Shown here: piece after piece, positions 46,891 to 64,000 of the stretch | Layout of the letters: each line of letters opens with the position of its first letter | Numbering within the stretch: the first letter of the stretch is position 1 | Origin: Vitiosangium sp. GDMCC 1.1324 | GTDB taxonomy: Bacteria; Myxococcota; Myxococcia; Myxococcales; Myxococcaceae | Direction: 5' to 3' | Length of the DNA: 64,000 bases | Assembly (NCBI RefSeq): GCF_003044305.1 | Contig: NZ_PZOX01000005.1 | Coordinates: 579,493 to 643,492 of the forward strand | The notes under the pieces: model-generated | The model's input: only the letters and a program-made list of their open reading frames with translations | Told to the model about the DNA's origin: nothing | The model's database searches: none | Position numbers and translations under genes: made by a program

Positions 46891-48789
46891 TCAGGCCTTG
46901 GGTTCGGGCGCGGGCAGGGACGGGTTCATCCCCTGGGAACTGGCCACCAGCATGCGCCCGAGCAGCGCCTCCGTCAGCCCGCCGCTGCCCGCCCCGCCCA
47001 CGGCGATGTCCGGCACCAGCTTCACGTGGTGCTCGCCCAGGATGCTGGCCACCTGCACCGCGGTGTAGGCCGTGGGGCCCAGGGCCTCCTGGCCCTGACG
47101 GTGGGCCTCGGCCTTCGCGGAGCCCACCTTGAGCACCAGCTCCGACTCGGCCTCGGCCCGGGCGGAGCCCACCCTGCGCACCGACTCGGCCTCCGCCTCC
47201 GCCTTCGCCAGGCCCACCATGCGCACCGACTCGGCCTCCGCCTCCGCCTTCGCCCTCACCGACGCCGCATCACCACGAGCCGACTCCACCTGCGCCCGAG
47301 CGTTCTGCTCGCTGATGCGCACCTGCTGCTCGCTGCGCACCACCTCCGCCTGGATGTTGGCGATGGCCAGCTCGCGCTGCAGATCCTGCCGCTTCATCTC
47401 CGCCAACCGCTGCACCTCGTAGGTGCGCTGCAGCTCCTCGGCGATCTTCCGGTCCGTCTGCGTCTTCATCAGCTCCGCGGGCGGCACGATGTCGCCAATG
47501 AGCGTGTCGATGCACTCCACGTCATACGCCTGGATGGCCTTCTTGATGGCCTCGAAGGCCTGCTTCTGCCGCTCGCTGCGCGCGGAGAGGAACTCCAGCA
47601 CCGTCACCTCCTGCGCCGAGTTGCGGAAGTAGTTGCCCACCGTGGGCTGGAGCACGTGGTCCACCAGGTTCTGCATGCTGCCCACCCGCGAGATGACGCG
47701 CGGCGCGTTCTTCACGCCGATGTGGATGATCTGCGACACGTCCAGGCTGAAGCTGAACCCATCCTTGCTGCGCACCAGGATGCTGGAGAGCTTGTCGTCG
47801 TAGTGGTGCGCCTCCGTGCGGTTGGCCCAGTTGAGAACGATGTTGGTGGTGGGCACCAGCTCCACCTTCATCACCCGCATGTTGAGCGGGTGCTTGCCGG
47901 GCAGCAGCGGCTCCACCCACACGCCCTTGTGCCCGCGCTCCACCAGGTCTCCGTGCGTGAACGCGTCACCGGACACGTCCACGTGCTCGCTGCCCACGTA
48001 GGACACCACCACGCCCACGTAGCCGATGGGAATCTCCGTCAGGGAGATGAGCTCCACCTGCACGAACCACGGGTTGAGGTTCCACGAGCCCGACATCAAC
48101 ACCTCCTCCTGGAGGCCACGGCAGCCGCCCGCGTCGATGAAGGCCTGCGGGCTCTGGAAGCTGTCATGGCGCGCGGCCACGGGGCCGGCCAGGTCACCCG
48201 GAGGCACCGGCTTGCCGTCCAGCACCGTGACGATGCCCACGCGATCCGGCGGCACCTGGAAGACACGGAGCTGGGCCGGGTGCATGCCGTGCTTCTCCGC
48301 GTTGGCGCTCCTCACCACCTCGAAGAGCGCGGGGTTGATGCGGTAGTGGCCCGCGGTGAGGAAGCCGCTCTGCCGGCCGCGCTCGCCCTCGTTGGAGAGG
48401 AACGCCTCCGCGTCCTGGTAGTTGTCGCACTCCACCTCGCGCCCGAGGATGCGCTCGCTGGGCAGCGGCGCGCCGTCCTTGGCCACCACGAGCGCCACCT
48501 CTCCCTGCGGGACGATGATGAGCGGCACTCGCTCCACCTTGTACTGCCAGCGCCACAGGCCGTAGTGCCAACCCGGAGGCAGCATCCGCGCCTGGTAGCC
48601 GGCCTCGCCCGAGCGGGCGATGAGCCGCCCCGGAGGCAGCGGCCGCCCGAAGCGCCGGATGACGAGCCCGGACTCGCCCTCGCGGATGACCCAGGTGCCA
48701 AGCATGAAGATGACCCAGAACGTCACGCCGGACAGCAGCAGCAACGCCGCGCCGACGAACAGGGGATGGGTCGGGATGAAGTCGAACAT
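46891..48789 (-). CDS. SPFH/band-7 (flotillin-like) membrane protein
   Basis: ATG at 48789 (MFDFIPTHPLFVGAALLLLSGVTFWV, TM anchor), preceded by gaaaggaaa. SPFH domain, then a long EA-rich coiled coil with AEAEAESVR repeats. The ORF extension to 49302 is rejected. Confidence 0.8.
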   Translation of the reverse strand: MFDFIPTHPLFVGAALLLLSGVTFWVIFMLGTWVIREGESGLVIRRFGRPLPPGRLIARSGEAGYQARMLPPGWHYGLWRWQYKVERVPLIIVPQGEVALVVAKDGAPLPSERILGREVECDNYQDAEAFLSNEGERGRQSGFLTAGHYRINPALFEVVRSANAEKHGMHPAQLRVFQVPPDRVGIVTVLDGKPVPPGDLAGPVAARHDSFQSPQAFIDAGGCRGLQEEVLMSGSWNLNPWFVQVELISLTEIPIGYVGVVVSYVGSEHVDVSGDAFTHGDLVERGHKGVWVEPLLPGKHPLNMRVMKVELVPTTNIVLNWANRTEAHHYDDKLSSILVRSKDGFSFSLDVSQIIHIGVKNAPRVISRVGSMQNLVDHVLQPTVGNYFRNSAQEVTVLEFLSARSERQKQAFEAIKKAIQAYDVECIDTLIGDIVPPAELMKTQTDRKIAEELQRTYEVQRLAEMKRQDLQRELAIANIQAEVVRSEQQVRISEQNARAQVESARGDAASVRAKAEAEAESVRMVGLAKAEAEAESVRRVGSARAEAESELVLKVGSAKAEAHRQGQEALGPTAYTAVQVASILGEHHVKLVPDIAVGGAGSGGLTEALLGRMLVASSQGMNPSLPAPEPKA

Positions 48790-55807: not shown

Positions 55808-56266
55808 TCACACCCCCTCGGCCACAGGAGCCGGCTGCGGAGAAACCCGGGTGAACTCGCGCGGCAGCACGGGCGGCGGCTGCTGGCGCATCTGGCCCGA
55901 GCGGCGGATGCGATTGAAGACGTACAGGTTGAAGAAGTGCATCGCCCCCAGCACGACCATCACCTTGCCCACCTTGCCGCAGACCAGCTCGATGACCTCC
56001 TGCACCGTCCAGATGGTCTGGTACTCCTTGAGCGACAGGGCAACGTACCCGATGTTCATCAGGTAGAAGCCCACCACCAGCAGGTGGTTCACCGAATCCG
56101 CCAGCCGCTCCTTGCCCAGGAAGGCATCGTGCAGGAAGTGCGAGCCGTTGCGTTGCAGCGTCTTCGCCACCCAGATCGTCAGCGTGATGCTCACGAGCAG
56201 GTAGAGCAGGTAGGCAGCCACCATGAACTGGCTCGACACGGGGGTCACCAGCGCGTTGGGTTCCAT
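55808..56266 (-). CDS. small integral membrane protein
   Basis: 152 aa; four TM helices. Stop/start overlap with the downstream DCC gene. Confidence 0.55.
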   Translation of the reverse strand: MEPNALVTPVSSQFMVAAYLLYLLVSITLTIWVAKTLQRNGSHFLHDAFLGKERLADSVNHLLVVGFYLMNIGYVALSLKEYQTIWTVQEVIELVCGKVGKVMVVLGAMHFFNLYVFNRIRRSGQMRQQPPPVLPREFTRVSPQPAPVAEGV

Positions 56267-56421
56267 GACTCGTCTCCCTCGGAGAGCGCGGCCGCCCGGG
56301 GCTCCAGTGCCCCTCCTGGGTTGGCGCCGCCCTCCCCTTTCATCAGGGAGTACCGGAAGGAATTTTCGCGGTTGCGGGGTGCCCGCTCATTCACACGGCC
56401 CGGATGTAGGCAGGGTATCGG

Positions 56422-57096
56422 TCACATGCTCGCGGCTCGGAGCTTCGCGATCCACTCCCGGATTTCCTCATTGGTCCTCCGAGCCGCGACTCCCTCCTGG
56501 AACATCAGGAAGTCGAAACGACCTTCCACGATCATGCCCATCAGCGCCCGGTCGGCGGCGATGATCTCCGGCACCTCCCAGGGAAAGACGGGCCATGTAC
56601 CGCGATCCTCACTGAAATCGGGCATCTCGTAGATGAACTCCAGATAGCGGGCGTAGGTGTCGAAGAATCGGTCCACATTGGAGGCAATGGGGAGTGCGTA
56701 GATGTCTTCGTAGGGGTCGACCTTGACGACCGGTTGGAGGCCCTGTGCATCGGCCAGGCTCGGCACCGTGGCGTAGCAATAGGACGAGGCATCCCGGCAT
56801 CCAAAGATGAGAAGGGATCGGAAGGGCTCGGGCCAGTAGGGCTGAATCTCCTCGTTCGCCATGAGGATTCCATTCACCTGCTCATCACAGGGTTCCACAA
56901 GAAGATCGAAGTCGAGATAAAGCCCGCCCAGTCGCGAATAGAAGGTCGCCAGCATCGGGTCGAAGGGTCGGCCCAGGAGTCGCGTGCCCGCGGTTGGTGC
57001 ACCTTCCCAGGGTTTTCGAATCTCGGCTCGGATGGGGTACTTCCCGCAGGCTGCCAGCAGCCTCTCGAGTCCAGGCAATGACATTTCGTTCATCAT
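56422..57096 (-). CDS. candidate immunity protein B' (cytoplasmic, ~224 aa), paralogue of 58929..59603
   Basis: ATG-ATG at 57096/57093 (MMNEMSLPGLERLL...), 14 nt downstream of the A' stop. No signal peptide; acidic. About 89% identical to B, with substitutions clustered at aa 50-100. Loose SUKH/SMI1-like pattern (LP..L....G..P, FY.RLGG). Confidence 0.55.
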   Translation of the reverse strand: MMNEMSLPGLERLLAACGKYPIRAEIRKPWEGAPTAGTRLLGRPFDPMLATFYSRLGGLYLDFDLLVEPCDEQVNGILMANEEIQPYWPEPFRSLLIFGCRDASSYCYATVPSLADAQGLQPVVKVDPYEDIYALPIASNVDRFFDTYARYLEFIYEMPDFSEDRGTWPVFPWEVPEIIAADRALMGMIVEGRFDFLMFQEGVAARRTNEEIREWIAKLRAASM

Positions 57097-57110
57097 GCGC
57101 CTCTTTCGTC

Positions 57111-58805
57111 TCACCTCGCGACCAGGGCACGGACATCAGCCAGCGCCGCCGCTGTAGCCCTTTCGAGCAGAGCGTCTGACTGGCTCGGCTCGTAGACCTT
57201 GTTGAACCAACGCTCGAAGTGCCGCCGGGTGACGGCCGCTATCTGCTGAACCTGCTCGGGACTGGCCTTGTCGCCAGCCTCCATACGAAAGGCATTCCAC
57301 ACTCTGTTGATACCCTCATGAACGGGCTTTCCCAGTGCCTTGAGGTTGGCAGCAGCGTTGATGTCCAACTCGGGGAAGAGGTGGGCATACTCCAGGGGAA
57401 TGAGGTGGTGGACGTCGTATCGTCCCCAGGCGCCTCGAAGCACTCCATTCAGTTCAGGATAGAAGACCCCATAGAAATCGTCTTGAGCCTTGGCCCTGAG
57501 CGCATCCTTGGCCTTCTTGTCCAATTTGACGGTGAGCGACTGCTCCATGCGCCGCAGGAGTTGGGTGAGTTCGTTGCGCTCGGCGGCGGAGAGGCATTCG
57601 AAGCCCTCCGTCTCCACCTTCACGAAGAGCCGCCGCAACAGTTCCTGGTCCGCGCGCCCCGCCCGAACGAGTTGCGTGCGCAACCAGCGCATCCCCGCGG
57701 CGCCTCCCCGGGTCGCCACCCGCATCACCGAGGGCGCCACCGCTTCGAAGGCGACGTGCAGGCCCTTGCCCACCAGTCCCCCGATAACGCATAGGGCCAC
57801 CTGCTCCAAGGTGAAGGCGCCCGCCAGCTTCACCGAGTCCACCATCTCCTCACGGTAGTGGTGGAAGATTTGTGCGTGCAGCAGGCGGTACTCGCGCAGC
57901 ACGTCCTCTCCCGCTTCATCCACCGGCTCCGGCCGGAGCGTCTCCGCCCGCTCCACCCTCCAGTGGGAGGTGGCGCTCGTCCCTCCGTGCATCCCGGACA
58001 GTTCCAGCCGCACAGTGCGTGGGCCCAGTCCGCGCATGAAGGGCAACAGGGTCAGGGTGAGTGCCTCGGCCACCCGAGCGTCCGCTGGGCGCACCGTGCC
58101 ACCTCCAGCGGCGTGGTAGGGCCCCATCTCCCAGCCCGTGAGCCGGTCGTCCTCCAGCGAGAGCTCCACCCTCATGCGCGCCGAAGCACCCGCGGGCACC
58201 TGGAGCAGGCGCACCACCTGCTTCGCCATGGCCTGCACGGCGGAGAGCGCCCTGGACGAATAGCCCGTGCGCCGCGCTGGCAGCTTTCTCGCCTCCGGGG
58301 GCGCATCCATGGGGAGTGCCTCATAATCCACCCGCCAGCGGCTCTGCTCCCGGTGCAATGTGAAGCCGAGGGCACCTGTACGAGTCTCGGCGAGCGTGAA
58401 GAGCAACTCTCGCAGCCCGCCCGTGAACGCCTCCGCCTTCGTCGGCTGGCCCGCCTCTCCTCCAACCGCCCTCCGACGGACGGACAGCAGCGTGAGGGCC
58501 CCACGCTCGGCCCAGAAGGTGAACTCCAGTACCGAGCCCACCTGCCCCTCTCCGCTGGCCACTGCCCACATCTGCCCCAGCGCCCACTCGACCTCGGCCC
58601 TCCGAGCCCCGGCTTCCTCAACCCATTCGTCAGCGGATGGCGAGGCGCTCGGGTTCGCGGAGACGAGGGTGGCCTCGCTTGGAAACGACGCACTGGCCGG
58701 CAGGGCGAATCCTCTCCCGTTCTCGTGCTGTGTCGTGGCGCACCCCTGCACCATCAGCATCGCGAGCCCCACCGCCACGGCCCGCCAGCACGCCCTGCGC
58801 GTCAT
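57111..58805 (-). CDS. lipoprotein with C-terminal HNH/EndoVII-like nuclease domain (candidate polymorphic toxin A')
   Basis: 564 aa. MTRRACWRAVAVGLAMLMVQGC is a lipoprotein signal. Last ~130 aa: ...RYDVHHLIPLEYAHLFPELDINAAANLKALGKPVHEG... has HH, Asn and His spaced as in the HNH/EndoVII fold (AHH/GHH/SHH-type toxin nucleases). The N-terminal 427 aa are ~99% identical to the paralogue; the C-terminus ~77%. Confidence 0.65.
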   Translation of the reverse strand: MTRRACWRAVAVGLAMLMVQGCATTQHENGRGFALPASASFPSEATLVSANPSASPSADEWVEEAGARRAEVEWALGQMWAVASGEGQVGSVLEFTFWAERGALTLLSVRRRAVGGEAGQPTKAEAFTGGLRELLFTLAETRTGALGFTLHREQSRWRVDYEALPMDAPPEARKLPARRTGYSSRALSAVQAMAKQVVRLLQVPAGASARMRVELSLEDDRLTGWEMGPYHAAGGGTVRPADARVAEALTLTLLPFMRGLGPRTVRLELSGMHGGTSATSHWRVERAETLRPEPVDEAGEDVLREYRLLHAQIFHHYREEMVDSVKLAGAFTLEQVALCVIGGLVGKGLHVAFEAVAPSVMRVATRGGAAGMRWLRTQLVRAGRADQELLRRLFVKVETEGFECLSAAERNELTQLLRRMEQSLTVKLDKKAKDALRAKAQDDFYGVFYPELNGVLRGAWGRYDVHHLIPLEYAHLFPELDINAAANLKALGKPVHEGINRVWNAFRMEAGDKASPEQVQQIAAVTRRHFERWFNKVYEPSQSDALLERATAAALADVRALVAR

Positions 58806-58817
58806 CGAGGATTCCCT

Positions 58818-58898
58818 TCAGGGCTGCCAGCGCCACAGGTAGAGGCCGAACTCGAGCACCGGGGTGTCAGCATCAGGGCGAGCCTGACCTATATCACC
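58818..58898 (-). pseudogene. frameshifted 3' fragment of the Ser/Thr kinase gene carried along by the duplication
   Basis: Aligns to kinase codons for ...LMLTPPVLEFGLYLWRWQP* (61328..61403) with a 1-nt deletion (ggggtg vs ggcggcg) and substitutions. Lies between A' and B. Confidence 0.75.
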
Positions 58899-58928
58899 GG
58901 CTCGCGGGAGAGTTGGGCAGAGTATCCG

Positions 58929-59603
58929 TTACGTGCTCGCGGCCCGGAGCTTCGCGATCCACTCCCGGATTTCCTCGTTGACCCTCCGAGCCGCGACGCC
59001 CTCCTGGAACATCAGGAAGTCGAAACGACCTTCCACGATCATGCCCATCAGCGCCCGGTCAGCGGCGATGATCTCCGGCACCCCCCAGGGAAAGGTGGGC
59101 CATGTACCGCGATCCTCAGAGAAATCGGGCATCTCGTAGATGAACTCCAGATAGCGGGCGTAGGTGTCGAAGAAGCGGTCCACATTGGAGGCAACGGGGA
59201 GTGCGTAGATGTCTTCGTAGGGGTCGACCTCGACGACCGGTTGGAAGCCCTGTGCATCCGCCAGGCTCGGAACCGTGGCGTAGCAATAGGCTGACGCCTC
59301 TTCGCCCCCGAAGACGAGAAGCGACCGGAAGGGCTCGGGCCAGTAGGGCTGAACCTCCTCGTTCGCCATGAGGATGCCATTCACCTGTTCATCACAAGCA
59401 TTGACATAGAGGTTGAGGTCGAGCAGGAGCCCACCCAGTCGTGAATAGAAGGCGGCCAGCATCGGGTCAAAGGGTCGGCCCAGGAGTAGCGCGCCCGCGG
59501 TTGGTGCACCTTCCCAGGGTTTTCGAATCTCGGCTCGGACGGGGTACTTCCCGCAGGCCGCCAGCAGCCGCTCGAGTCCAGGCAATGAGATTTCTTTCAT
59601 CAT
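58929..59603 (-). CDS. candidate immunity protein B (cytoplasmic, ~224 aa)
   Basis: ATG-ATG at 59603/59600 (MMKEISLPGLERLL...), 15 nt after the A stop and preceded by gagggaagag. The ORF extension to 59717 is rejected because it overlaps A. Confidence 0.55.
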   Translation of the reverse strand: MMKEISLPGLERLLAACGKYPVRAEIRKPWEGAPTAGALLLGRPFDPMLAAFYSRLGGLLLDLNLYVNACDEQVNGILMANEEVQPYWPEPFRSLLVFGGEEASAYCYATVPSLADAQGFQPVVEVDPYEDIYALPVASNVDRFFDTYARYLEFIYEMPDFSEDRGTWPTFPWGVPEIIAADRALMGMIVEGRFDFLMFQEGVAARRVNEEIREWIAKLRAAST

Positions 59604-59617
59604 GTGTCTCTTCCCTC

Positions 59618-61315
59618 TCACCTTACAACCAGGGCACTGACATCCTCCAGCGCCGCCGCCGTGACCCTTTCGAGCAGAGCGTCTGACTGGCTCGGCTCGT
59701 AGAGTTTGTTGAACCAACGCCCGAAATGTCGCTGGGTGATGTCCACCATCTGTCGAACCTGTTCGGGACTGGCCGTGTCACCCGCTTCCTTGCGGAAGGC
59801 ATTCCATATCTTGTTGATACTCCCATGAACGGGCTTGCCTAAGGCCTTGAGGTTGGCGGCAGCGTTGATGTCCAACTGCGGAAACAGGTGGGCATACTCC
59901 AGGGGGACAAGGTGATGGACGTCGTATTGTTTTCCCTCAACGTCCCTCAATACCCTCTCCAGCTCGGGATGGAAGGCCCCGTAGAAATCAGCTTTAGCCT
60001 TGGCACGAAGCGCGTTCTTGGCATCACGGTCCAATTTGACGGTGAGCGACTGCTCCATGCGCCGCAGGAGTTGGGTGAGTTCGTTGCGCTCGGCGGCGGA
60101 GAGGCATTCGAAGCCCTCCGTCTCCACCTTCACGAAGAGCCGCCGCAACAGTTCCTGATCCGCGCGCCCCGCCCGGACGAGTTGTGTGCGCAACCAGCGC
60201 ATCCCCGCGGCGCCTCCCCGGGTTGCCACCCGCATCACCGAGGGCGCCACCGCTTCGAAGGCGACGTGCAGGCCCTTGCCCACCAGTCCCCCGATAACGC
60301 ATAGGGCCACCTGCTCCAAGGTGAAGGCGCCCGCCAGCTTCACCGAGTCCACCATCTCCTCACGGTAGTGGTGGAAGATTTGTGCGTGCAGCAGGCGGTA
60401 CTCGCGCAGCACGTCCTCCACTGCTTCGTCCACCGGCTCCGGCCGGAGCGTCTCCGCCCGCTCCACCCTCCAGTGGGAGGTGGTGCTCGTCCCTCCGTGC
60501 ATCCCGGACAGTTCCAGCCGCACAGTGCGTGGGCCCAGTCCGCGCATGAAGGGCAACAGGGTCAGGGTGAGTGCCTCGGCCACCCGAGCGTCCGCTGGGC
60601 GCACCGTGCCACCTCCAGCGGCGTGGTAGGGCCCCATCTCCCAGCCCGTGAGCCGGTCGTCCTCCAGCGAGAGCTCCACCCTCATGCGCGCCGAAGCACC
60701 CGCGGGCACCTGGAGCAGGCGCACCACCTGCTTCGCCATGGCCTGCACGGCGGAGAGCGCCCTGGACGAATAGCCCGTGCGCCGCGCCGGCAGCTTTCTC
60801 GTCTCCGGGGGCGCATCCATGGGGAGCGCCTCATAATCCACCCGCCAGCGGCTCTGCTCCCGGTGCAATGTGAAGCCGAGGGCACCTGTACGAGTCTCGG
60901 CGAGCGTGAAGAGCAACTCTCGCAGCCCGCCCGTGAACGCCTCCGCCTTCGTCGGCTGGCCCACCTCTCCTCCAACCGCCCTCCGACGGACGGACAGCAG
61001 CGTGAGGGCCCCACGCTCGGCCCAGAAGGTGAACTCCAGTACCGAGCCCACCTGCCCCTCTCCGCTGGCCACTGCCCACATCTGCCCCAGCGCCCACTCG
61101 ACCTCGGCCCTCCGAGCCCCGGCTTCCTCAACCCATTCGTCAGCGGATGGCGAGGCGCTCGGGTTCGCGGAGACGAGGGTGGCCTCGCTTGGAAACGACG
61201 CACTGGCCGGCAGGGCGAATCCTCTCCCGTTCTCGTGCTGTGTCGTGGCGCACCCCTGCACCATCAGCATCGCGAGCCCCACCGCCACGGCCCGCCAGCA
61301 CGCCCTGCGCGTCAT
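59618..61315 (-). CDS. lipoprotein with C-terminal HNH/EndoVII-like nuclease domain (candidate polymorphic toxin A)
   Basis: 565 aa. ATG at 61315 is 12 nt after the kinase stop, with an aagggaa RBS. The C-terminal domain ...QYDVHHLVPLEYAHLFPQLDINAAANLKALGKPVHGS... retains the HH / N / H residues but differs from A' at ~30 of 134 positions plus one indel. Coding GC is lower over 59620..60030. Confidence 0.65.
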   Translation of the reverse strand: MTRRACWRAVAVGLAMLMVQGCATTQHENGRGFALPASASFPSEATLVSANPSASPSADEWVEEAGARRAEVEWALGQMWAVASGEGQVGSVLEFTFWAERGALTLLSVRRRAVGGEVGQPTKAEAFTGGLRELLFTLAETRTGALGFTLHREQSRWRVDYEALPMDAPPETRKLPARRTGYSSRALSAVQAMAKQVVRLLQVPAGASARMRVELSLEDDRLTGWEMGPYHAAGGGTVRPADARVAEALTLTLLPFMRGLGPRTVRLELSGMHGGTSTTSHWRVERAETLRPEPVDEAVEDVLREYRLLHAQIFHHYREEMVDSVKLAGAFTLEQVALCVIGGLVGKGLHVAFEAVAPSVMRVATRGGAAGMRWLRTQLVRAGRADQELLRRLFVKVETEGFECLSAAERNELTQLLRRMEQSLTVKLDRDAKNALRAKAKADFYGAFHPELERVLRDVEGKQYDVHHLVPLEYAHLFPQLDINAAANLKALGKPVHGSINKIWNAFRKEAGDTASPEQVRQMVDITQRHFGRWFNKLYEPSQSDALLERVTAAALEDVSALVVR

Positions 61316-61327
61316 CGAGGATTCCCT

Positions 61328-62773
61328 TCAGGGTTGCCAGCGCCACAGGTAGAGGCCGAACTCAAGCACCGGCGGCGTCAGCATCAGAACGAGTCCGGCC
61401 CACACCACCGGCTCGCGGGAGAGTGGACGCTGGCGCCGCCACGCCTCCAGGGTCGAGACGCACAGAAGGTAGAGCGCCGACAGCTCCAGCAGCCCTCCCA
61501 CCAGCGGCATGAAGGGAGGCATCGAGATGCCCGCGCCCCACTCCAGCACGCCTCGCAGGGCGAACAGGCCCGAGCAGGCAATCGTCACCCCCAGGAAGGA
61601 CCGGCCCTCGTGCAGCGGCACCTCCGGCGCGGGCGCATCCAGTCCCTCGTGGCGCCAGTGTCTGCGCAACAAGCCATACGCCGCCAACGCCACCGCGAGC
61701 CCCGCCACCGCGCCGAGGATGGGGCCCGTCTCGAAGCGCGCCCGTGTCACCCACCGGCCATCCGCCAGTCTCGCCGCGGGCTGCATGGTGAGGGGATCCA
61801 ACTCGTGCGGGGCCAGCACCCGCGGCGTCACCGACACGACGAGCGCCCACAGCACCAGTGCGCACGCCACCGCCTGCAACACCGCCACCGCCCTCAGCCA
61901 GATGGCCTCGTCCGGAGGCAGGGCCGCCTCCGCCGCTCCGTCCGCGAGCCGCCGCAGGTCCAGGCCCAGTGCCTGCGCGCTCGCGTAGCGCCGTGACGGT
62001 TCGAGCGCCACCGCCCTGCGCACCATCGTCCCGAGCGCCCCCGTCAACGCGGGCGCCCCCGCCACCGGTGGCCGGCCCGTCACCATCTCGTGCAGCAGCA
62101 CCCCCACCGCGTACACGTCCATGCGCGGGTCCGGCGGCGCTCCGGCGAGGGCCTCGGGAGCCATGTACTCAGGCGTCCCCACCACCGCGTGCGCGGCGGT
62201 GAGCGTGTCTCTCGGCCCCTCCTGCCGGACGATGCGGGCAATCCCGAAGTCCGTCACCTTCACCCGGCCCTCTCCGTCCATCAGGATGTTGGCCGGCTTG
62301 ATGTCCCGATGCACCACGCCTCGCGCATGCGCGTAGGCCAGCGCGTCGCACACCTGGAGCGCCACGCGCACGGCCTCCGCCGGAGGCAACGGCAGTACCT
62401 GTGCCAGGGAGCGGCCCTCCACCAGCTCCATCACCAGGAAGCGCTCGCCCTCCTCGTCACCAAAGTCGTGCACCCGGACGATGTTCGGATGATCCAACAG
62501 TGCCAGGGCCCTCGCCTCCCGCGCGAAGCGGGCCTGCGCCTCGGCGCTCGAGGCGGCCTCCCCCGCGAGGAACTTCACCGCCACCGGCCGATCCAACCGC
62601 ACATGGCGCGCCCGGAAGACACGGCCCATGCCTCCCCGGCCGATCTCCTCCTCCAGCTCCAGCGAGCCGATGCGCCCCGGATCCTCCATGTCCTCTCCCA
62701 GGAGGCAGCCGGGACATACCGCCAGGCGCTGGCCATCCACGGGCGTTCCGCAGCGCGAGCAGCGGGCACTCAT
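61328..62773 (-). CDS. Ser/Thr protein kinase with N-terminal CxxC zinc-ribbon and C-terminal multi-TM region
   Basis: 481 aa. CSRCGTPV...CPGC; kinase subdomains GRGGMGRVFRA, VAVKFL, HRDIKPANIL, DFGIA, GTPEYMAPE. Four C-terminal hydrophobic helices. Its ATG overlaps the ECF sigma stop (ATGA). Confidence 0.9.
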   Translation of the reverse strand: MSARCSRCGTPVDGQRLAVCPGCLLGEDMEDPGRIGSLELEEEIGRGGMGRVFRARHVRLDRPVAVKFLAGEAASSAEAQARFAREARALALLDHPNIVRVHDFGDEEGERFLVMELVEGRSLAQVLPLPPAEAVRVALQVCDALAYAHARGVVHRDIKPANILMDGEGRVKVTDFGIARIVRQEGPRDTLTAAHAVVGTPEYMAPEALAGAPPDPRMDVYAVGVLLHEMVTGRPPVAGAPALTGALGTMVRRAVALEPSRRYASAQALGLDLRRLADGAAEAALPPDEAIWLRAVAVLQAVACALVLWALVVSVTPRVLAPHELDPLTMQPAARLADGRWVTRARFETGPILGAVAGLAVALAAYGLLRRHWRHEGLDAPAPEVPLHEGRSFLGVTIACSGLFALRGVLEWGAGISMPPFMPLVGGLLELSALYLLCVSTLEAWRRQRPLSREPVVWAGLVLMLTPPVLEFGLYLWRWQP

Positions 62774-63492
62774 CGCTTCAGCACCCGGAGCAGCTCGGCG
62801 AGCTCGGCCTCCGCCTCCTCCGGCCCTCCCACCGTGTCCGCCACTTCCTCGCGCACCAGCTCGCGGTAGCGCACCCGCGCCCGGTGCAGGAACGTCTTGA
62901 GCTGCGGCAGGGACATGCCGTGTGCCTCCGCCGCCTCCCGGTAGCTCGGCGGCTCACCCGGGCGGAAGAACTGGAGCACCAGGTCGAAGGGGCCCTTGCG
63001 CGCTCCACTGTCGTACTCGGCCTTCAGCCGCTCCAGGGCGCGCTCCATGACGCTCGAGGCCCATTCCCGCTCGAAGGCCTCGTCCGGGCCCTGGGCATCC
63101 TCGGAGGCAATCCGCTCCGCCAGCTCGAAGTCCAACGGCAGGGCCACCACGCCCCCTCCGCGCCGCGCGGCACTCTCCCGCTCGTAACGGTGGGCGAGGT
63201 GGTTGCGCGCGGCCGTCAGCAGGTAGCCCCGCAACCGGCCCTTCTCGGGGCTCAGCCGCTCGAGGAAGTCGTGCTCCAACAGCCGCACCAGCAAATCCTG
63301 CACGGCGTCGCGCGCGGGCTCCGCGTCCAGCCCCTGGCGGCGCATGAAGACGTAGAGAGGGCGCCAGTAGGTGCTCAGCAACGACTCGAGTGCCGCGCGG
63401 CGGGCCTCCGGCGATACCCGCGCCGAGCGGATGAGGGTCCAGCGCGTGGGTGGAAAGGAGCCCGGTCCTTCCTCTCGCGGATCTGCGCTCAT
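62770..63492 (-). CDS. ECF (group 4) RNA polymerase sigma factor
   Basis: ATG at 63492 (MSADPREEGPGSFPPTRWTLIRSA...). The ORF to 63642 is rejected. Sigma-70 region 2 (...LESLLSTYWRPLYVFMRRQGLDAEPARDAVQDLLVRLL...) and region 4 (...SYREAAEAHGMSLPQLKTFLHRARVRYRELV). Confidence 0.85.
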   Translation of the reverse strand: MSADPREEGPGSFPPTRWTLIRSARVSPEARRAALESLLSTYWRPLYVFMRRQGLDAEPARDAVQDLLVRLLEHDFLERLSPEKGRLRGYLLTAARNHLAHRYERESAARRGGGVVALPLDFELAERIASEDAQGPDEAFEREWASSVMERALERLKAEYDSGARKGPFDLVLQFFRPGEPPSYREAAEAHGMSLPQLKTFLHRARVRYRELVREEVADTVGGPEEAEAELAELLRVLKR

Positions 63493-63726
63493 GGAAGAGG
63501 TTCTAGCGCAAACAGGGGGAGTCCTTCCCGGGGGGCGGGCACCTGACCTCCAGTGCACATCTACTCCGGGCTCTGCTCGCTGCCGGACACGGCTCCTCCG
63601 CCCGCCGAAGCGGCGCATCCGTTTCACTGGAGGAAAAGGCACCAGCGCATTGCCCGGACACCTTCCGCTCTCTAGCTTCCCGCACCCGAAGCCACACCCC
63701 CAGTCGCAGTCACGCGAGGACGAACC

Positions 63727-64000
63727 ATGACCCCTGCCTCTCAGATGAGCATGCCGATGCAGCCCGGAATGAACCCGATGATGGGCGGCATGCCCATGAT
63801 GGGTATGAACCCGATGATGGGCATGAATCAGATGCCGATGATGGGCATGAACCCGATGATGGGCGGCATGCCCATGCCCATGCCCATGATGGGCGGCATG
63901 CCCATGCCGATGATGGGCATGAACCCGATGATGGGCGGCATGCCCATGCCGATGATGGGCATGAACCCGATGATGGGCGGCATGCCCATGATGATGCCCA
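63727..64000 (+). CDS. Met/Gly/Pro-rich repeat protein, 5' part (continues beyond window)
   Basis: ATG at 63727, 8 nt after gagga. MTPASQMSMPMQPGMNPMMGGMPMMGMNPMMGMNQMPMMGMNPMMGGMPMPMP... Strongly G/C-ending codons on the plus strand. The antisense His-rich frame has T-ending codons, so the plus frame is preferred. Absent from the ORF track because no stop lies inside the window. Confidence 0.6.
   Translation, partial: MTPASQMSMPMQPGMNPMMGGMPMMGMNPMMGMNQMPMMGMNPMMGGMPMPMPMMGGMPMPMMGMNPMMGGMPMPMMGMNPMMGGMPMMMP

What the first reader, a model, noticed from the sequence alone, without database searches (positions are those of the whole stretch)
58806..58914. Duplication junction preserves a frameshifted 3' fragment of the upstream kinase gene
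Between A' and B lies an ~80-bp copy of the last 25 codons of the Ser/Thr kinase (LMLTPPVLEFGLYLWRWQP*), carrying a 1-nt deletion, together with the 12-nt kinase-to-toxin spacer and its RBS. This molecular scar shows the ancestral arrangement was kinase-A-B and that the unit was duplicated by unequal crossing-over including the kinase 3' end. It also means A' kept its native ribosome-binding context. Divergence in the fragment dates the duplication as not recent.
Basis: seen in the sequence. Interest (0 to 1): 0.55.

Follow-up and report, generated by a model that had tools for sequence, protein, structure and literature searches.

The report
Kinase-gene scar at duplicated toxin cassette
A dead 97-base copy of the end of a kinase gene marks the seam where a 2.5-kb toxin-plus-antidote gene pair was placed head-to-tail behind an older copy; this is an ordinary rearrangement scar, and its one informative feature is that the two copies carry two old, different specificity variants.

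Summary
Window 58806-58913 matches 61316-61424, the 12-nt kinase-to-A spacer plus the kinase stop codon and last 31 codons: 89% identity, one gap, blastn E=3e-34. The copy is dead, with a 1-nt deletion and an in-frame TAG.

It is the novel joint of two head-to-tail 2.51-kb units on the minus strand: sigma, kinase, A, B, fragment, A', B'. At least eight distinct related Archangiaceae loci have single-copy sigma-kinase-A-B at the same position, so the tandem state is derived.

No usable homology exists at the breakpoint (58913/58914), so the event was illegitimate recombination rather than homologous crossing-over.

The units are a mosaic:
- A 1.34-kb block (57527-58862) is about 99% identical (dS 0.027) and includes the proximal half of the fragment.
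- It is flanked by old sequence: the distal fragment is 80% identical and the A C-terminus has dS 0.63 with dN/dS 0.22.
- This pattern indicates an old event followed by gene conversion.

B and B' belong to two immunity types shared across species, and two A residues beside the HH motif co-vary with the type. A looks like a myxobacterial lipoprotein HNH-type toxin and B has a SUKH immunity fold.

This is a known kind of scar, of modest interest.

The parts
58818..58913 (-). Pseudogene fragment of the kinase 3' end: stop codon plus 31 codons. It carries a 1-nt deletion at 58862/58863 and an in-frame TAG at 58889-58891, and has no start codon.
   Evidence: 85 of 98 positions identical to 61328-61425; blastn E=3e-34; translations; tblastn of the kinase onto 58821-58912.
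58806..58817 (-). 12-nt spacer (AGGGAATCCTCG on the coding strand) between the fragment's stop codon and the A' ATG. It is identical to the kinase-to-A spacer 61316-61327 and contains the AAGGG Shine-Dalgarno-like motif.
   Evidence: 0 differences in 12 positions; sequence.
58914..58928 (-). 15 nt downstream of the B stop codon, homologous to 56407-56421 downstream of B'. This is the 3' end of the repeat unit.
   Evidence: 13 of 15 positions identical when read directly; the programmed segment table scores a 13-nt subset (56409-56421) as 2 differences in 13; alignment.
58913..58914 (.). Novel joint of the rearrangement. Kinase-derived sequence ends at 58913 (matching 61424) and B-downstream sequence starts at 58914 (matching 56407). 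The parental sites share at most 1-3 nt of microhomology.
   Evidence: Three-way comparison of 58900-58930, 61411-61430 and 56400-56421.
58914..61424 (-). Repeat unit I: kinase last 97 nt, spacer, A, B, and 15 nt.
   Evidence: Direct-repeat spacing of 2507-2511 nt; global alignment.
56407..58913 (-). Repeat unit II: kinase fragment, spacer, A', B', and 15 nt.
57527..58862 (.). Gene-conversion tract, with partner 60037-61373. There are 16 differences in 1337 columns (about 99% identity). It is flanked on both sides by sequence that is only 80% identical.
   Evidence: Segment table and Fisher tests, p=6e-9 and 2e-39; dS 0.027 inside against 0.63 outside; A and A' N-termini are sisters at 100% bootstrap while the C-termini are not.
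61328..62773 (-). Intact Ser/Thr protein kinase (481 aa) with a C-terminal membrane region. It is the source of the fragment.
   Evidence: Pfam Pkinase, E=7.6e-54; 90-93% identical orthologues sit next to A in relatives.
62770..63492 (-). ECF-type sigma factor gene whose stop overlaps the kinase start by 4 nt.
   Evidence: Sigma70_r2; TIGR02937 at 43.3 bits against a cut-off of 42.9.
59618..61315 (-). A, a 565-aa predicted lipoprotein. It has an N-terminal domain of about 425 aa and a C-terminal domain of about 140 aa with invariant HH467/468, N484 and H497. It pairs with the type I immunity protein.
   Evidence: ORF; invariant columns; structure model; no Pfam or NCBIfam hit.
58929..59603 (-). 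B, a 224-aa predicted immunity protein with a SUKH (SMI1/KNR4) fold, type I.
   Evidence: Model pLDDT 92.7; Foldseek hits 2icg and 2prv with probability 1.00; type assignment.
57111..58805 (-). A', 564 aa, identical to the Vitiosangium sp. GDMCC 1.1324 protein P0001. It is intact, and its C-terminus pairs with the type II immunity protein.
   Evidence: 100% identity to P0001; dN/dS 0.22 in the diverged part; type-linked residues 458 and 462.
56422..57096 (-). B', 224 aa, an intact SUKH-type protein of type II.

Best explanation
The segment 58806-58913 is a non-functional rearrangement scar.

The event. An illegitimate (non-homologous or micro-homology) joining connected a point 15 nt past the stop codon of the immunity-like gene B to a point 97 nt before the end of the Ser/Thr kinase gene. 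That second point lay in a second copy of the same sigma-kinase-A-B locus, either a sister chromosome or an incoming homologous allele. The result is two head-to-tail 2.51-kb units: kinase-A-B-[kinase tail]-A'-B'. The kinase tail came along only because the left breakpoint fell inside the kinase gene.

Decay. The fragment has since decayed. It has 7 substitutions of its own, a Trp-to-TAG change and a 1-nt deletion.

Age and conversion. The event is old: the unconverted parts are as diverged as orthologues between species. Later gene conversion between the two units homogenised 1.34 kb. That block covers the N-terminal roughly 425 codons of A, the start codon, the spacer and the proximal 45 nt of the fragment. 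B was converted more patchily.

What escaped conversion. The toxin C-terminal domain and a block of about 55 codons in B were not homogenised. These correspond to two old specificity types (I and II) that also occur at this locus in other Archangiaceae.

Status of each step:
- Shown: the repeat, the joint, the decay, the mosaic, the single-copy synteny and the two types.
- Inferred: the order of events, and that A/B and A'/B' are two non-cross-protecting toxin-immunity pairs.
- Also inferred: that A'-B' is expressed by read-through from B using the retained ribosome-binding site.
For: Match and joint:
- blastn E=3e-34, 89% identity over 109 columns.
- Unit spacing of 2507-2511 nt.
- No shared homology at the parental breakpoints.

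Fragment decay:
- In-frame TAG and 1-nt deletion.
- Polarising the 13 differences with 9 orthologous kinases gives 7 fragment-derived, 3 kinase-derived and 3 ambiguous.

Derived tandem state:
- Single-copy A at the same sigma-kinase locus, upstream of orf150-DCC1, in L001/L010, L003, L005, L006, L007, L008, L009, L012 and L013.

Mosaic:
- Identity is 80% in the distal fragment, about 99% across 57527-58862, 80% in the A C-terminus and 91% in B.
- dS is 0.027 for A codons 1-425, 0.63 for the C-terminal codons, and 0.035-0.48 along B.
- Kinase dS between this genome and its relatives is 0.36-0.51.
- In NJ trees, A and A' are sisters (100% bootstrap) for the N-terminus but not for the C-terminus.

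Selection:
- dN/dS is 0.22 in the diverged A C-terminus.
- The invariant C22, HH467/468, N484 and H497 are kept in both copies.

Two types:
- In B codons 53-108, the type II sequences form a clade with 80% bootstrap that includes B' and sequences from 5 other genomes.
- Outside that block, B and B' are sisters.
- Patch dS is 0.64 for B against B', compared with 0.32-0.38 for same-type orthologues.
- A residues 458 and 462 track the partner's type in 13 pairs.

Immunity-like nature of B:
- SUKH fold.
- B is retained intact where A is internally deleted (L060-L062).
Against: - No second strain or genome with the same joint was found. The junction 24-mer is absent from metagenome contigs, and the closest A homologue outside this genome is 79% identical. 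The event therefore cannot be dated by presence or absence.
- The age estimate rests on 7 substitutions in about 53 nt.
- Gene conversion is inferred from the pattern alone. No formal recombination test such as GENECONV or RDP was run.
- The toxin activity of A is not demonstrated. There is no Pfam, NCBIfam or PDB-profile hit, and whole-protein fold searches were uninformative.
- The type assignment was made by eye from the same block that was then used to build the tree, which is partly circular. The co-variation test ignores phylogeny.
Confidence: 0.85

Rival explanations
1. Allele stacking. The downstream unit (fragment-A'-B') did not arise from this genome's own A-B. It came from a diverged homologous locus of another lineage carrying the type II allele, together with the tail of that lineage's kinase, and was joined behind the resident type I unit. 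Under this reading the divergence of the fragment partly reflects donor divergence rather than time since the event. This is a variant of the best explanation, not an alternative to the scar reading.
For: - Types I and II are shared across species.
- Single-copy loci carry either type: I in L001, L003, L005 and L061; II in L007 and L013.
- Two-copy loci always carry one of each type, but in either order: L009 and L012 are I-II, L008 is II-I.
- Patch dS between B and B' (0.64) is about twice that to same-type orthologues.
- The A' C-terminus is nearer to L007, L011 and L016 than to A.
- The window kinase has unique derived states at four sites (alignment columns 21, 38, 62 and 92) that the fragment lacks.
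Against: - 7 of the 13 fragment differences are private to the fragment. They include first- and second-codon-position changes and a stop, as expected from decay in place.
- The fragment is still slightly closer to the resident kinase (85/98) than to any other sampled kinase (72-83/98).
- No donor lineage was identified.
Confidence: 0.4
2. A recent in-situ duplication followed by rapid adaptive divergence of the toxin C-terminus and of the immunity interface. Under this reading the roughly 99%-identical block reflects the true young age.
For: 1.34 kb at about 99% identity. Toxin-immunity pairs are known to diversify under selection (general knowledge of polymorphic toxin systems).
Against: - dS in the diverged A C-terminus is 0.63 and dN/dS is 0.22, so the synonymous sites themselves are old and selection is purifying.
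- The non-coding distal fragment on the other side of the identical block is also 80% identical.
- The divergent B block matches alleles in other species at synonymous sites as well.
Confidence: 0.04
3. The retained kinase tail is functional. It might provide A' with a promoter, a translational-coupling mini-ORF or a leader, and would then be maintained by selection rather than being a neutral scar.
For: The proximal 57 nt (spacer plus the last 15 codons) are nearly identical to the kinase-A junction. A 13-codon GTG-initiated ORF ending 12 nt before the A' ATG is possible.
Against: - No sigma-70-like promoter or terminator was found in the region.
- The RNA fold of the junction is no more stable than shuffled sequences, z=0.53.
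- The kinase-to-A spacer is not conserved in length or sequence among orthologous loci, ranging from 9 to 40 nt.
- The near-identity is fully explained by the conversion tract, which extends 1.3 kb into A.
- The distal half of the fragment is decaying freely.
Confidence: 0.08
4. An assembly artefact: two alleles or strains, or a collapsed repeat, wrongly laid out in tandem in a draft genome.
For: The source is a draft assembly (719-kb contig) that contains a 1.3-kb near-identical repeat.
Against: - The joint has a decayed kinase fragment with its own private substitutions, a stop and an indel. It is joined precisely to the 15 nt that follow B.
- The flanks of the identical block differ by 9-20%, which anchors both copies uniquely.
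- Extra B copies occur at the same locus in complete genomes of relatives (L009).
Confidence: 0.03

Closest known systems
Tandem segmental duplication with a truncated flanking-gene fragment at the novel joint (generic bacterial duplication scar, followed by concerted evolution through gene conversion)
   Same: Head-to-tail units; a single novel joint that fuses the downstream end of the unit to an internal point of the upstream neighbour; a decaying gene fragment; homogenised internal tracts.
   Different: Nothing essential. The only particular feature is that the unconverted segments coincide with the putative specificity determinants of a toxin-immunity pair.
SitA/SitI lipoprotein polymorphic toxin-immunity loci of myxobacteria, transferred by TraAB outer-membrane exchange (PMC5562445, PMC8546572)
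   Same: - A has a type II signal with an invariant lipobox Cys and no Lys at +2.
- It has a conserved N-terminal domain of about 400 aa followed by a C-terminal HH...N...H domain of about 140 aa. The SitA4 and SitA6 families carry non-modular AHH nucleases according to PMC8546572.
- The immunity-like gene lies 14 nt downstream.
- The family is confined to the Myxococcaceae/Archangiaceae genomes that were hit and is multi-copy per genome.
- Some members share only the N-terminal region.
   Different: - Membership in any of the six SitA escort-domain families could not be tested, because no reference sequences were available here.
- Pfam AHH does not hit A.
- The locus is chromosomal, syntenic and embedded in a sigma-kinase operon rather than on an obvious mobile element.
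- TraAB dependence is unknown.
SUKH (SMI1/KNR4) immunity proteins of polymorphic toxin systems, such as B. subtilis YobK (PDB 2prv) and Listeria 2icg
   Same: The B model (pLDDT 92.7) matches 2icg and 2prv with Foldseek probability 1.00 and target-normalised TM-scores of 0.62-0.69. Tandem and orphan immunity copies occur (A-B-B and A-B-B-B arrays).
   Different: No Pfam SMI1_KNR4 or NCBIfam hit. Sequence identity is about 13%. B has an extra C-terminal helical extension of about 70 aa.
ECF sigma factor paired with a Ser/Thr kinase
   Same: The sigma gene overlaps the start of a membrane Ser/Thr kinase gene by 4 nt, and the pair is conserved in at least 9 relatives.
   Different: Any regulatory link between this pair and A-B is untested. 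A-B also occurs without them, in L002 (Melittangium, between gcvP and leuS) and in L004.

Membership tests
Tandem duplication junction scar | Two contiguous head-to-tail copies of the same segment | tested here: met
   Units 56407-58913 and 58914-61424, alignable end to end with 4 small indels.
Tandem duplication junction scar | A single novel joint that fuses the distal end of the unit to its proximal start, with both parental sequences identifiable | tested here: met
   At 58913/58914, the left side matches kinase 61424 and the right side matches 56407 downstream of B'.
Tandem duplication junction scar | Single-copy arrangement at the orthologous locus in relatives | tested here: met
   sigma-kinase-A-B-orf150-DCC1 with one A in L001/L010, L003, L005, L006, L007, L008, L009, L012 and L013.
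Tandem duplication junction scar | The fragment is non-functional (disrupted reading frame, no start codon) | tested here: met
   TAG at 58889-58891, a 1-nt deletion and no ATG. No promoter, terminator or stable structure signal.
Gene conversion (concerted evolution) between the units | An internal block of much higher identity, bounded on both sides by diverged paralogous sequence | tested here: met
   About 99% identity in 57527-58862 against 80% on either side; Fisher p=6e-9 and 2e-39; dS 0.027 against 0.63.
Gene conversion (concerted evolution) between the units | Phylogenetic incongruence between segments | tested here: met
   A N-terminus: the paralogues are sisters at 100% bootstrap. 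A C-terminus and B codons 53-108: the paralogues group with other species.
SitA-type myxobacterial lipoprotein toxin | Type II signal peptide with a lipobox Cys and outer-membrane sorting (no Lys at +2) | tested here: met
   The N-terminus MTRRACWRAVAVGLAMLMVQGC-ATT has C22 invariant in 31 homologues, with Ala at +2 and Glu at +7. The sorting rule is quoted from PMC5562445.
SitA-type myxobacterial lipoprotein toxin | An N-terminal escort domain homologous to one of the six defined SitA families | not testable with these tools
   No SitA reference sequences or models are available. The PNAS 2019 family paper is not held, and the supplements of PMC8546572 carry no sequences.
SitA-type myxobacterial lipoprotein toxin | A C-terminal nuclease toxin domain | tested here: inconclusive
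   Invariant HH467/468, N484 and H497 lie on a predicted strand-strand-helix element, and one source names a homologue 'HNH endonuclease'. However, there is no Pfam AHH or HNH hit even at E<=10, no PDB profile hit, and the fold searches were uninformative.
SitA-type myxobacterial lipoprotein toxin | A cognate immunity gene immediately downstream in the same operon | tested here: met
   B starts 14 nt after A, and B' starts 14 nt after A'. A B homologue follows A in essentially all of the 52 loci where downstream sequence is present.
SitA-type myxobacterial lipoprotein toxin | TraAB-dependent cell-to-cell transfer and killing | not testable with these tools
   This requires experiments.
SUKH (SMI1/KNR4) immunity superfamily (protein B) | SUKH alpha/beta fold | tested here: met
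   Foldseek against PDB: 2icg at E=2.8e-3, probability 1.00, target-normalised TM-score (TMt) 0.62; 2prv (YobK) at probability 1.00, TMt 0.69; the FBXO3 SUKH domain is also listed. The model has pLDDT 92.7.
SUKH (SMI1/KNR4) immunity superfamily (protein B) | A match to the Pfam SMI1_KNR4 sequence models | tested here: not met
   No Pfam family at E<=10. NCBIfam gives only YrhA family at E=0.073, far below its cut-off.
SUKH (SMI1/KNR4) immunity superfamily (protein B) | Neutralises the adjacent toxin | not testable with these tools
   Indirect evidence only. B is retained intact where A is internally deleted. Orphan B arrays occur. The A and B types co-vary.

The most novel reading that the evidence does not exclude
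The two units are not mere duplicates. They would be a stacked pair of two ancient, trans-specific specificity types (I and II) of a so-far unannotated myxobacterial lipoprotein-nuclease and SUKH-immunity family. The types would be kept distinct by selection while gene conversion erases all other divergence.

In addition, the 3' end of the sigma-linked kinase gene would be a recurrent breakpoint for cassette gain. A second, independent kinase-tail scar exists in L005. Under this reading, the ECF sigma/kinase operon is the conserved expression platform into which toxin-immunity units are repeatedly inserted, lost (the deleted A in L060-L062) or reshuffled (A-B-B2 in L008, L009 and L012).
Probability: 0.35. 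Interest if true: 0.5.

Novelty: new member of a known kind. Interest (0 to 1): 0.3.

Why it matters
The scar itself is ordinary. Its value is as a fixed landmark that gives the exact unit boundaries and a neutral sequence against which the rest of the unit can be read.

Read that way, the locus is a compact natural example of how a toxin-immunity pair is doubled and then mostly homogenised by gene conversion. Only the toxin domain and a block of about 55 codons in the immunity protein stay distinct. Those segments, together with A residues 458 and 462 beside the catalytic HH, are direct candidates for the specificity interface and could be tested by swapping them.

The analysis also flags an unannotated A/B family, multi-copy in Archangiaceae and Myxococcaceae, that looks like the SitA/SitI kin-discrimination toxins.

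Tried and rejected
- Exact-sequence look-ups of the kinase, A and P0001 found nothing on record.
- The first genome scan, with A alone, found no relatives because the peptide patterns were too specific. The alignment-based scan worked.
- Pfam and NCBIfam give no family for A or B, even at permissive thresholds.
- PDB profile searches were empty for A and gave only chance-level hits for B.
- The promoter and terminator scan of 56200-63700 found no promoter-like site, and the only terminator-like hit lies inside B'.
- The RNA fold of the junction is no better than shuffled sequence.
- The junction-specific 24-mer is absent from metagenome contigs.
- The kinase 3' end was searched against each syntenic locus for further scars. 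Only L005 has one.
- The SitA family paper (PNAS 2019) is not held, and the supplements of PMC8546572 contain no sequences, so SitA family membership could not be tested.
- Positive selection as the cause of the C-terminal divergence was rejected, since dN/dS is 0.22 and dS is 0.63.
- Assembly artefact was rejected because the fragment has private decay mutations.

Full report
**Layout**

All relevant genes lie on the minus strand. In order they are:
- an ECF-type sigma factor (62770-63492);
- a 481-aa Ser/Thr kinase (61328-62773; Pfam Pkinase E=7.6e-54);
- A (59618-61315, 565 aa);
- B (58929-59603, 224 aa);
- a 123-nt gap (58806-58928);
- A' (57111-58805, 564 aa);
- B' (56422-57096, 224 aa);
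- a 152-aa ORF and a DCC1-like gene.

A' is 100% identical to a protein of Vitiosangium sp. GDMCC 1.1324, which identifies the source organism.

**Observation**

With the junction region masked, blastn of the gap against the rest of the window gives one strong hit. Positions 58806-58913 match 61316-61424 over 109 columns at 89% identity with one gap, E=3e-34. The next hit is a 16-mer at E=0.004.

The 12-nt spacer is identical in both places. It differs from the kinase at 13 of 98 positions.

The remaining 15 nt of the gap (58914-58928) match the 15 nt that follow the B' stop codon. The gap is therefore exactly 'end of unit' joined to 'start of unit'. The joint is at 58913/58914, and the units are 56407-58913 and 58914-61424. 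The two parental sites share no more than 1-3 nt, so the joining was illegitimate and not a crossover between pre-existing repeats.

**Is the single-copy arrangement ancestral?**

Yes. An alignment-based scan of one genome per species found 52 loci encoding A relatives. Exact-protein look-ups added further loci.

The same neighbourhood, sigma-kinase-A-B-orf150-DCC1 with one A, occurs in these loci:
- Archangium lansingense (L001/L010);
- A. gephyra (L003, L009);
- A. violaceum (L012);
- several metagenome-assembled genomes or contigs (L005, L006, L007, L008, L013).

The locus is structurally restless:
- L008, L009 and L012 have an extra orphan B copy.
- L060-L062 have A reduced to a 103-aa in-frame remnant while B is intact.
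- L005 has a 1.1-kb insert ending in a 60-nt copy of a different piece of the kinase 3' region.

A-B also occurs away from any kinase, in Melittangium (L002) and in L004. It is therefore a portable two-gene module.

**Age and mosaic structure**

Identity along the unit is far from uniform:

| Segment | Identity between units |
|---|---|
| Distal 51 nt of the fragment | 80% |
| Proximal fragment, spacer and A codons 1-426 (57527-58862) | about 99% (16 differences in 1337 columns) |
| A C-terminal 139 codons | 80% |
| B | 91% overall, with a divergent block |

Synonymous divergence tells the same story. dS is 0.027 in the A N-terminus, 0.63 in the A C-terminus, and 0.035-0.48 along B. For scale, kinase dS between this genome and its sampled relatives is 0.36-0.51.

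A near-identical block bounded on both sides by old sequence is the signature of gene conversion, not of a young duplication. The C-terminal divergence is not adaptive runaway either. dN/dS there is 0.22, and the invariant Cys22, HH467/468, N484 and H497 are intact in both copies.

Polarising the fragment's 13 differences with nine orthologous kinases gives 7 fragment-derived, 3 kinase-derived and 3 ambiguous. The fragment-derived changes sit mostly at first and second codon positions. The fragment has therefore been drifting as a pseudogene for a long time. That amounts to roughly 0.13 substitutions per site on its own branch, against about 0.18-0.25 per lineage for between-species synonymous divergence. 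This estimate rests on only 7 events and is very rough.

**Two old types**

Aligning the B proteins from the syntenic loci shows that the divergent block (codons about 53-108) comes in two forms:
- type I: ...LYVNACDEQ...LLVFGG...
- type II: ...L[FL]VEPCDEQ...LLIFG[CR]...

Window B is type I and B' is type II. L009 and L012 carry I then II, and L008 carries II then I. Single-copy loci carry either I or II.

A nucleotide tree of this block recovers a type II clade (80% bootstrap) that contains B' together with sequences from five other genomes. In the flanking parts of the gene, B and B' are each other's closest relatives.

At synonymous sites in the block, B against B' gives dS 0.64. B' against same-type L007 gives 0.32, and B against same-type L005 or L061 gives 0.35-0.38. 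Outside the block, B against B' gives 0.10.

In A, residues 458 and 462, which lie 5-9 residues before the HH motif, perfectly track the partner's type in 13 A-B pairs. A permutation test gives 55 of 5000, not corrected for phylogeny.

The A C-terminal tree is also incongruent with the N-terminal tree in the type-consistent direction.

The type split is therefore older than the separation of this lineage from L005 and L007. Two histories fit. Either the tandem state is very old and was lost differentially, or two pre-existing alleles were stacked by the rearrangement. The present data do not separate these.

**What A and B are**

No Pfam, NCBIfam or PDB-sequence model matches either protein.

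B folds confidently (pLDDT 92.7). Its best structural matches are the SUKH/SMI1-KNR4 proteins 2icg and 2prv (B. subtilis YobK), both with Foldseek probability 1.00. From established knowledge, SUKH is the classic immunity fold of polymorphic toxin systems.

A has these features:
- a lipoprotein signal with an invariant Cys and no Lys at +2;
- a conserved N-terminal region of about 400 aa;
- a C-terminal domain whose invariant HH...N...H residues sit on a predicted strand-strand-helix element.

The family is multi-copy in Archangiaceae and Myxococcaceae. Some members share only the N-terminal part, and A-B-B(-B) arrays are common.

This is the architecture described for SitA/SitI outer-membrane-exchange toxins (PMC5562445, PMC8546572). 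Membership in a specific SitA family could not be tested here, and nuclease activity is inferred only from the motif.

**Function of the fragment itself**

There is no evidence for any function:
- no start codon;
- no promoter- or terminator-like site;
- no unusual RNA structure (z=0.53);
- the kinase-to-A spacer is not conserved among species, ranging from 9 to 40 nt.

A' does retain the identical 12-nt spacer with its AAGGG motif. It has lost the translational proximity to an upstream stop codon that A enjoys, because B ends 123 nt upstream of A'. Since only 15 nt downstream of B were duplicated, A'-B' is most simply expressed by read-through from B. This last point is inference.

**Verdict**

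It is an ordinary kind of scar. The more interesting content lies around it: an old tandem pair of toxin-immunity units, homogenised by gene conversion except at putative specificity determinants that correspond to two trans-specific types.

Noticed in passing
L005:8727-8786 and L005:9907-9966: In a related metagenome-assembled genome (GCA_034691685.1), a 1.1-kb lower-GC insert sits between the kinase and A. It encodes a small lipoprotein-like ORF and an immunity-like ORF. It ends in a 60-nt, 96.7%-identical copy of an internal piece of the kinase 3' region, 35 nt upstream of A. This is a second kinase-tail scar with different boundaries from the one in the window, which suggests the kinase 3' end is a recurrent breakpoint.
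   Followed up: partly
L061:3330-3641 (also L060:9705-9986 and L062:110-421): At the same sigma-kinase locus, A is reduced to a 103-aa in-frame fusion of residues 1-93 with the last 12 or so residues. B stays intact and is the closest relative (89%) of window B. This is the toxin-lost, immunity-kept pattern.
   Followed up: yes
L008:9710-11090, L009:9705-11131, L012:4408-5844: Three Archangium genomes carry A-B-B2 at the syntenic locus, and the two B copies are always of opposite type. The order is I-II in L009 and L012 but II-I in L008. In L009 the array is followed by an unrelated 279-aa gene on the opposite strand.
   Followed up: partly
window 56422-57096 and 58929-59603 (B codons 53-108); window A residues 453-462: The only parts of B/B' that escaped homogenisation form two trans-specific types. 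A residues 458 and 462, next to the HH motif, co-vary with these types. Together they form a candidate toxin-immunity specificity interface.
   Followed up: partly
window 63729-64000 (+ strand, runs off the window end): An ORF that begins MTPASQMSMPMQPGMNPMMGGMPMMG... and consists of tandem Met/Pro/Gly/Asn-rich repeats with 36-42-nt periods. It lies divergently upstream of the sigma factor gene.
   Followed up: no
window 62770-62773: The sigma factor stop codon overlaps the kinase start codon (ATGA). The sigma-kinase pair is conserved with 89-95% protein identity in all syntenic relatives. This is an ECF sigma plus Ser/Thr kinase pair with no separate anti-sigma gene visible.
   Followed up: no
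L001:1-1105: About 9 kb upstream of the Archangium lansingense locus lies an unrelated AHH-nuclease (weak Pfam hit) plus Imm11 immunity pair. The neighbourhood therefore holds other toxin-immunity modules.
   Followed up: no
window 58824-58839 and 48544-48559: A 16-nt exact match between the fragment and a distant site in the window (blastn E=0.004). It is probably chance in GC-rich DNA.
   Followed up: no
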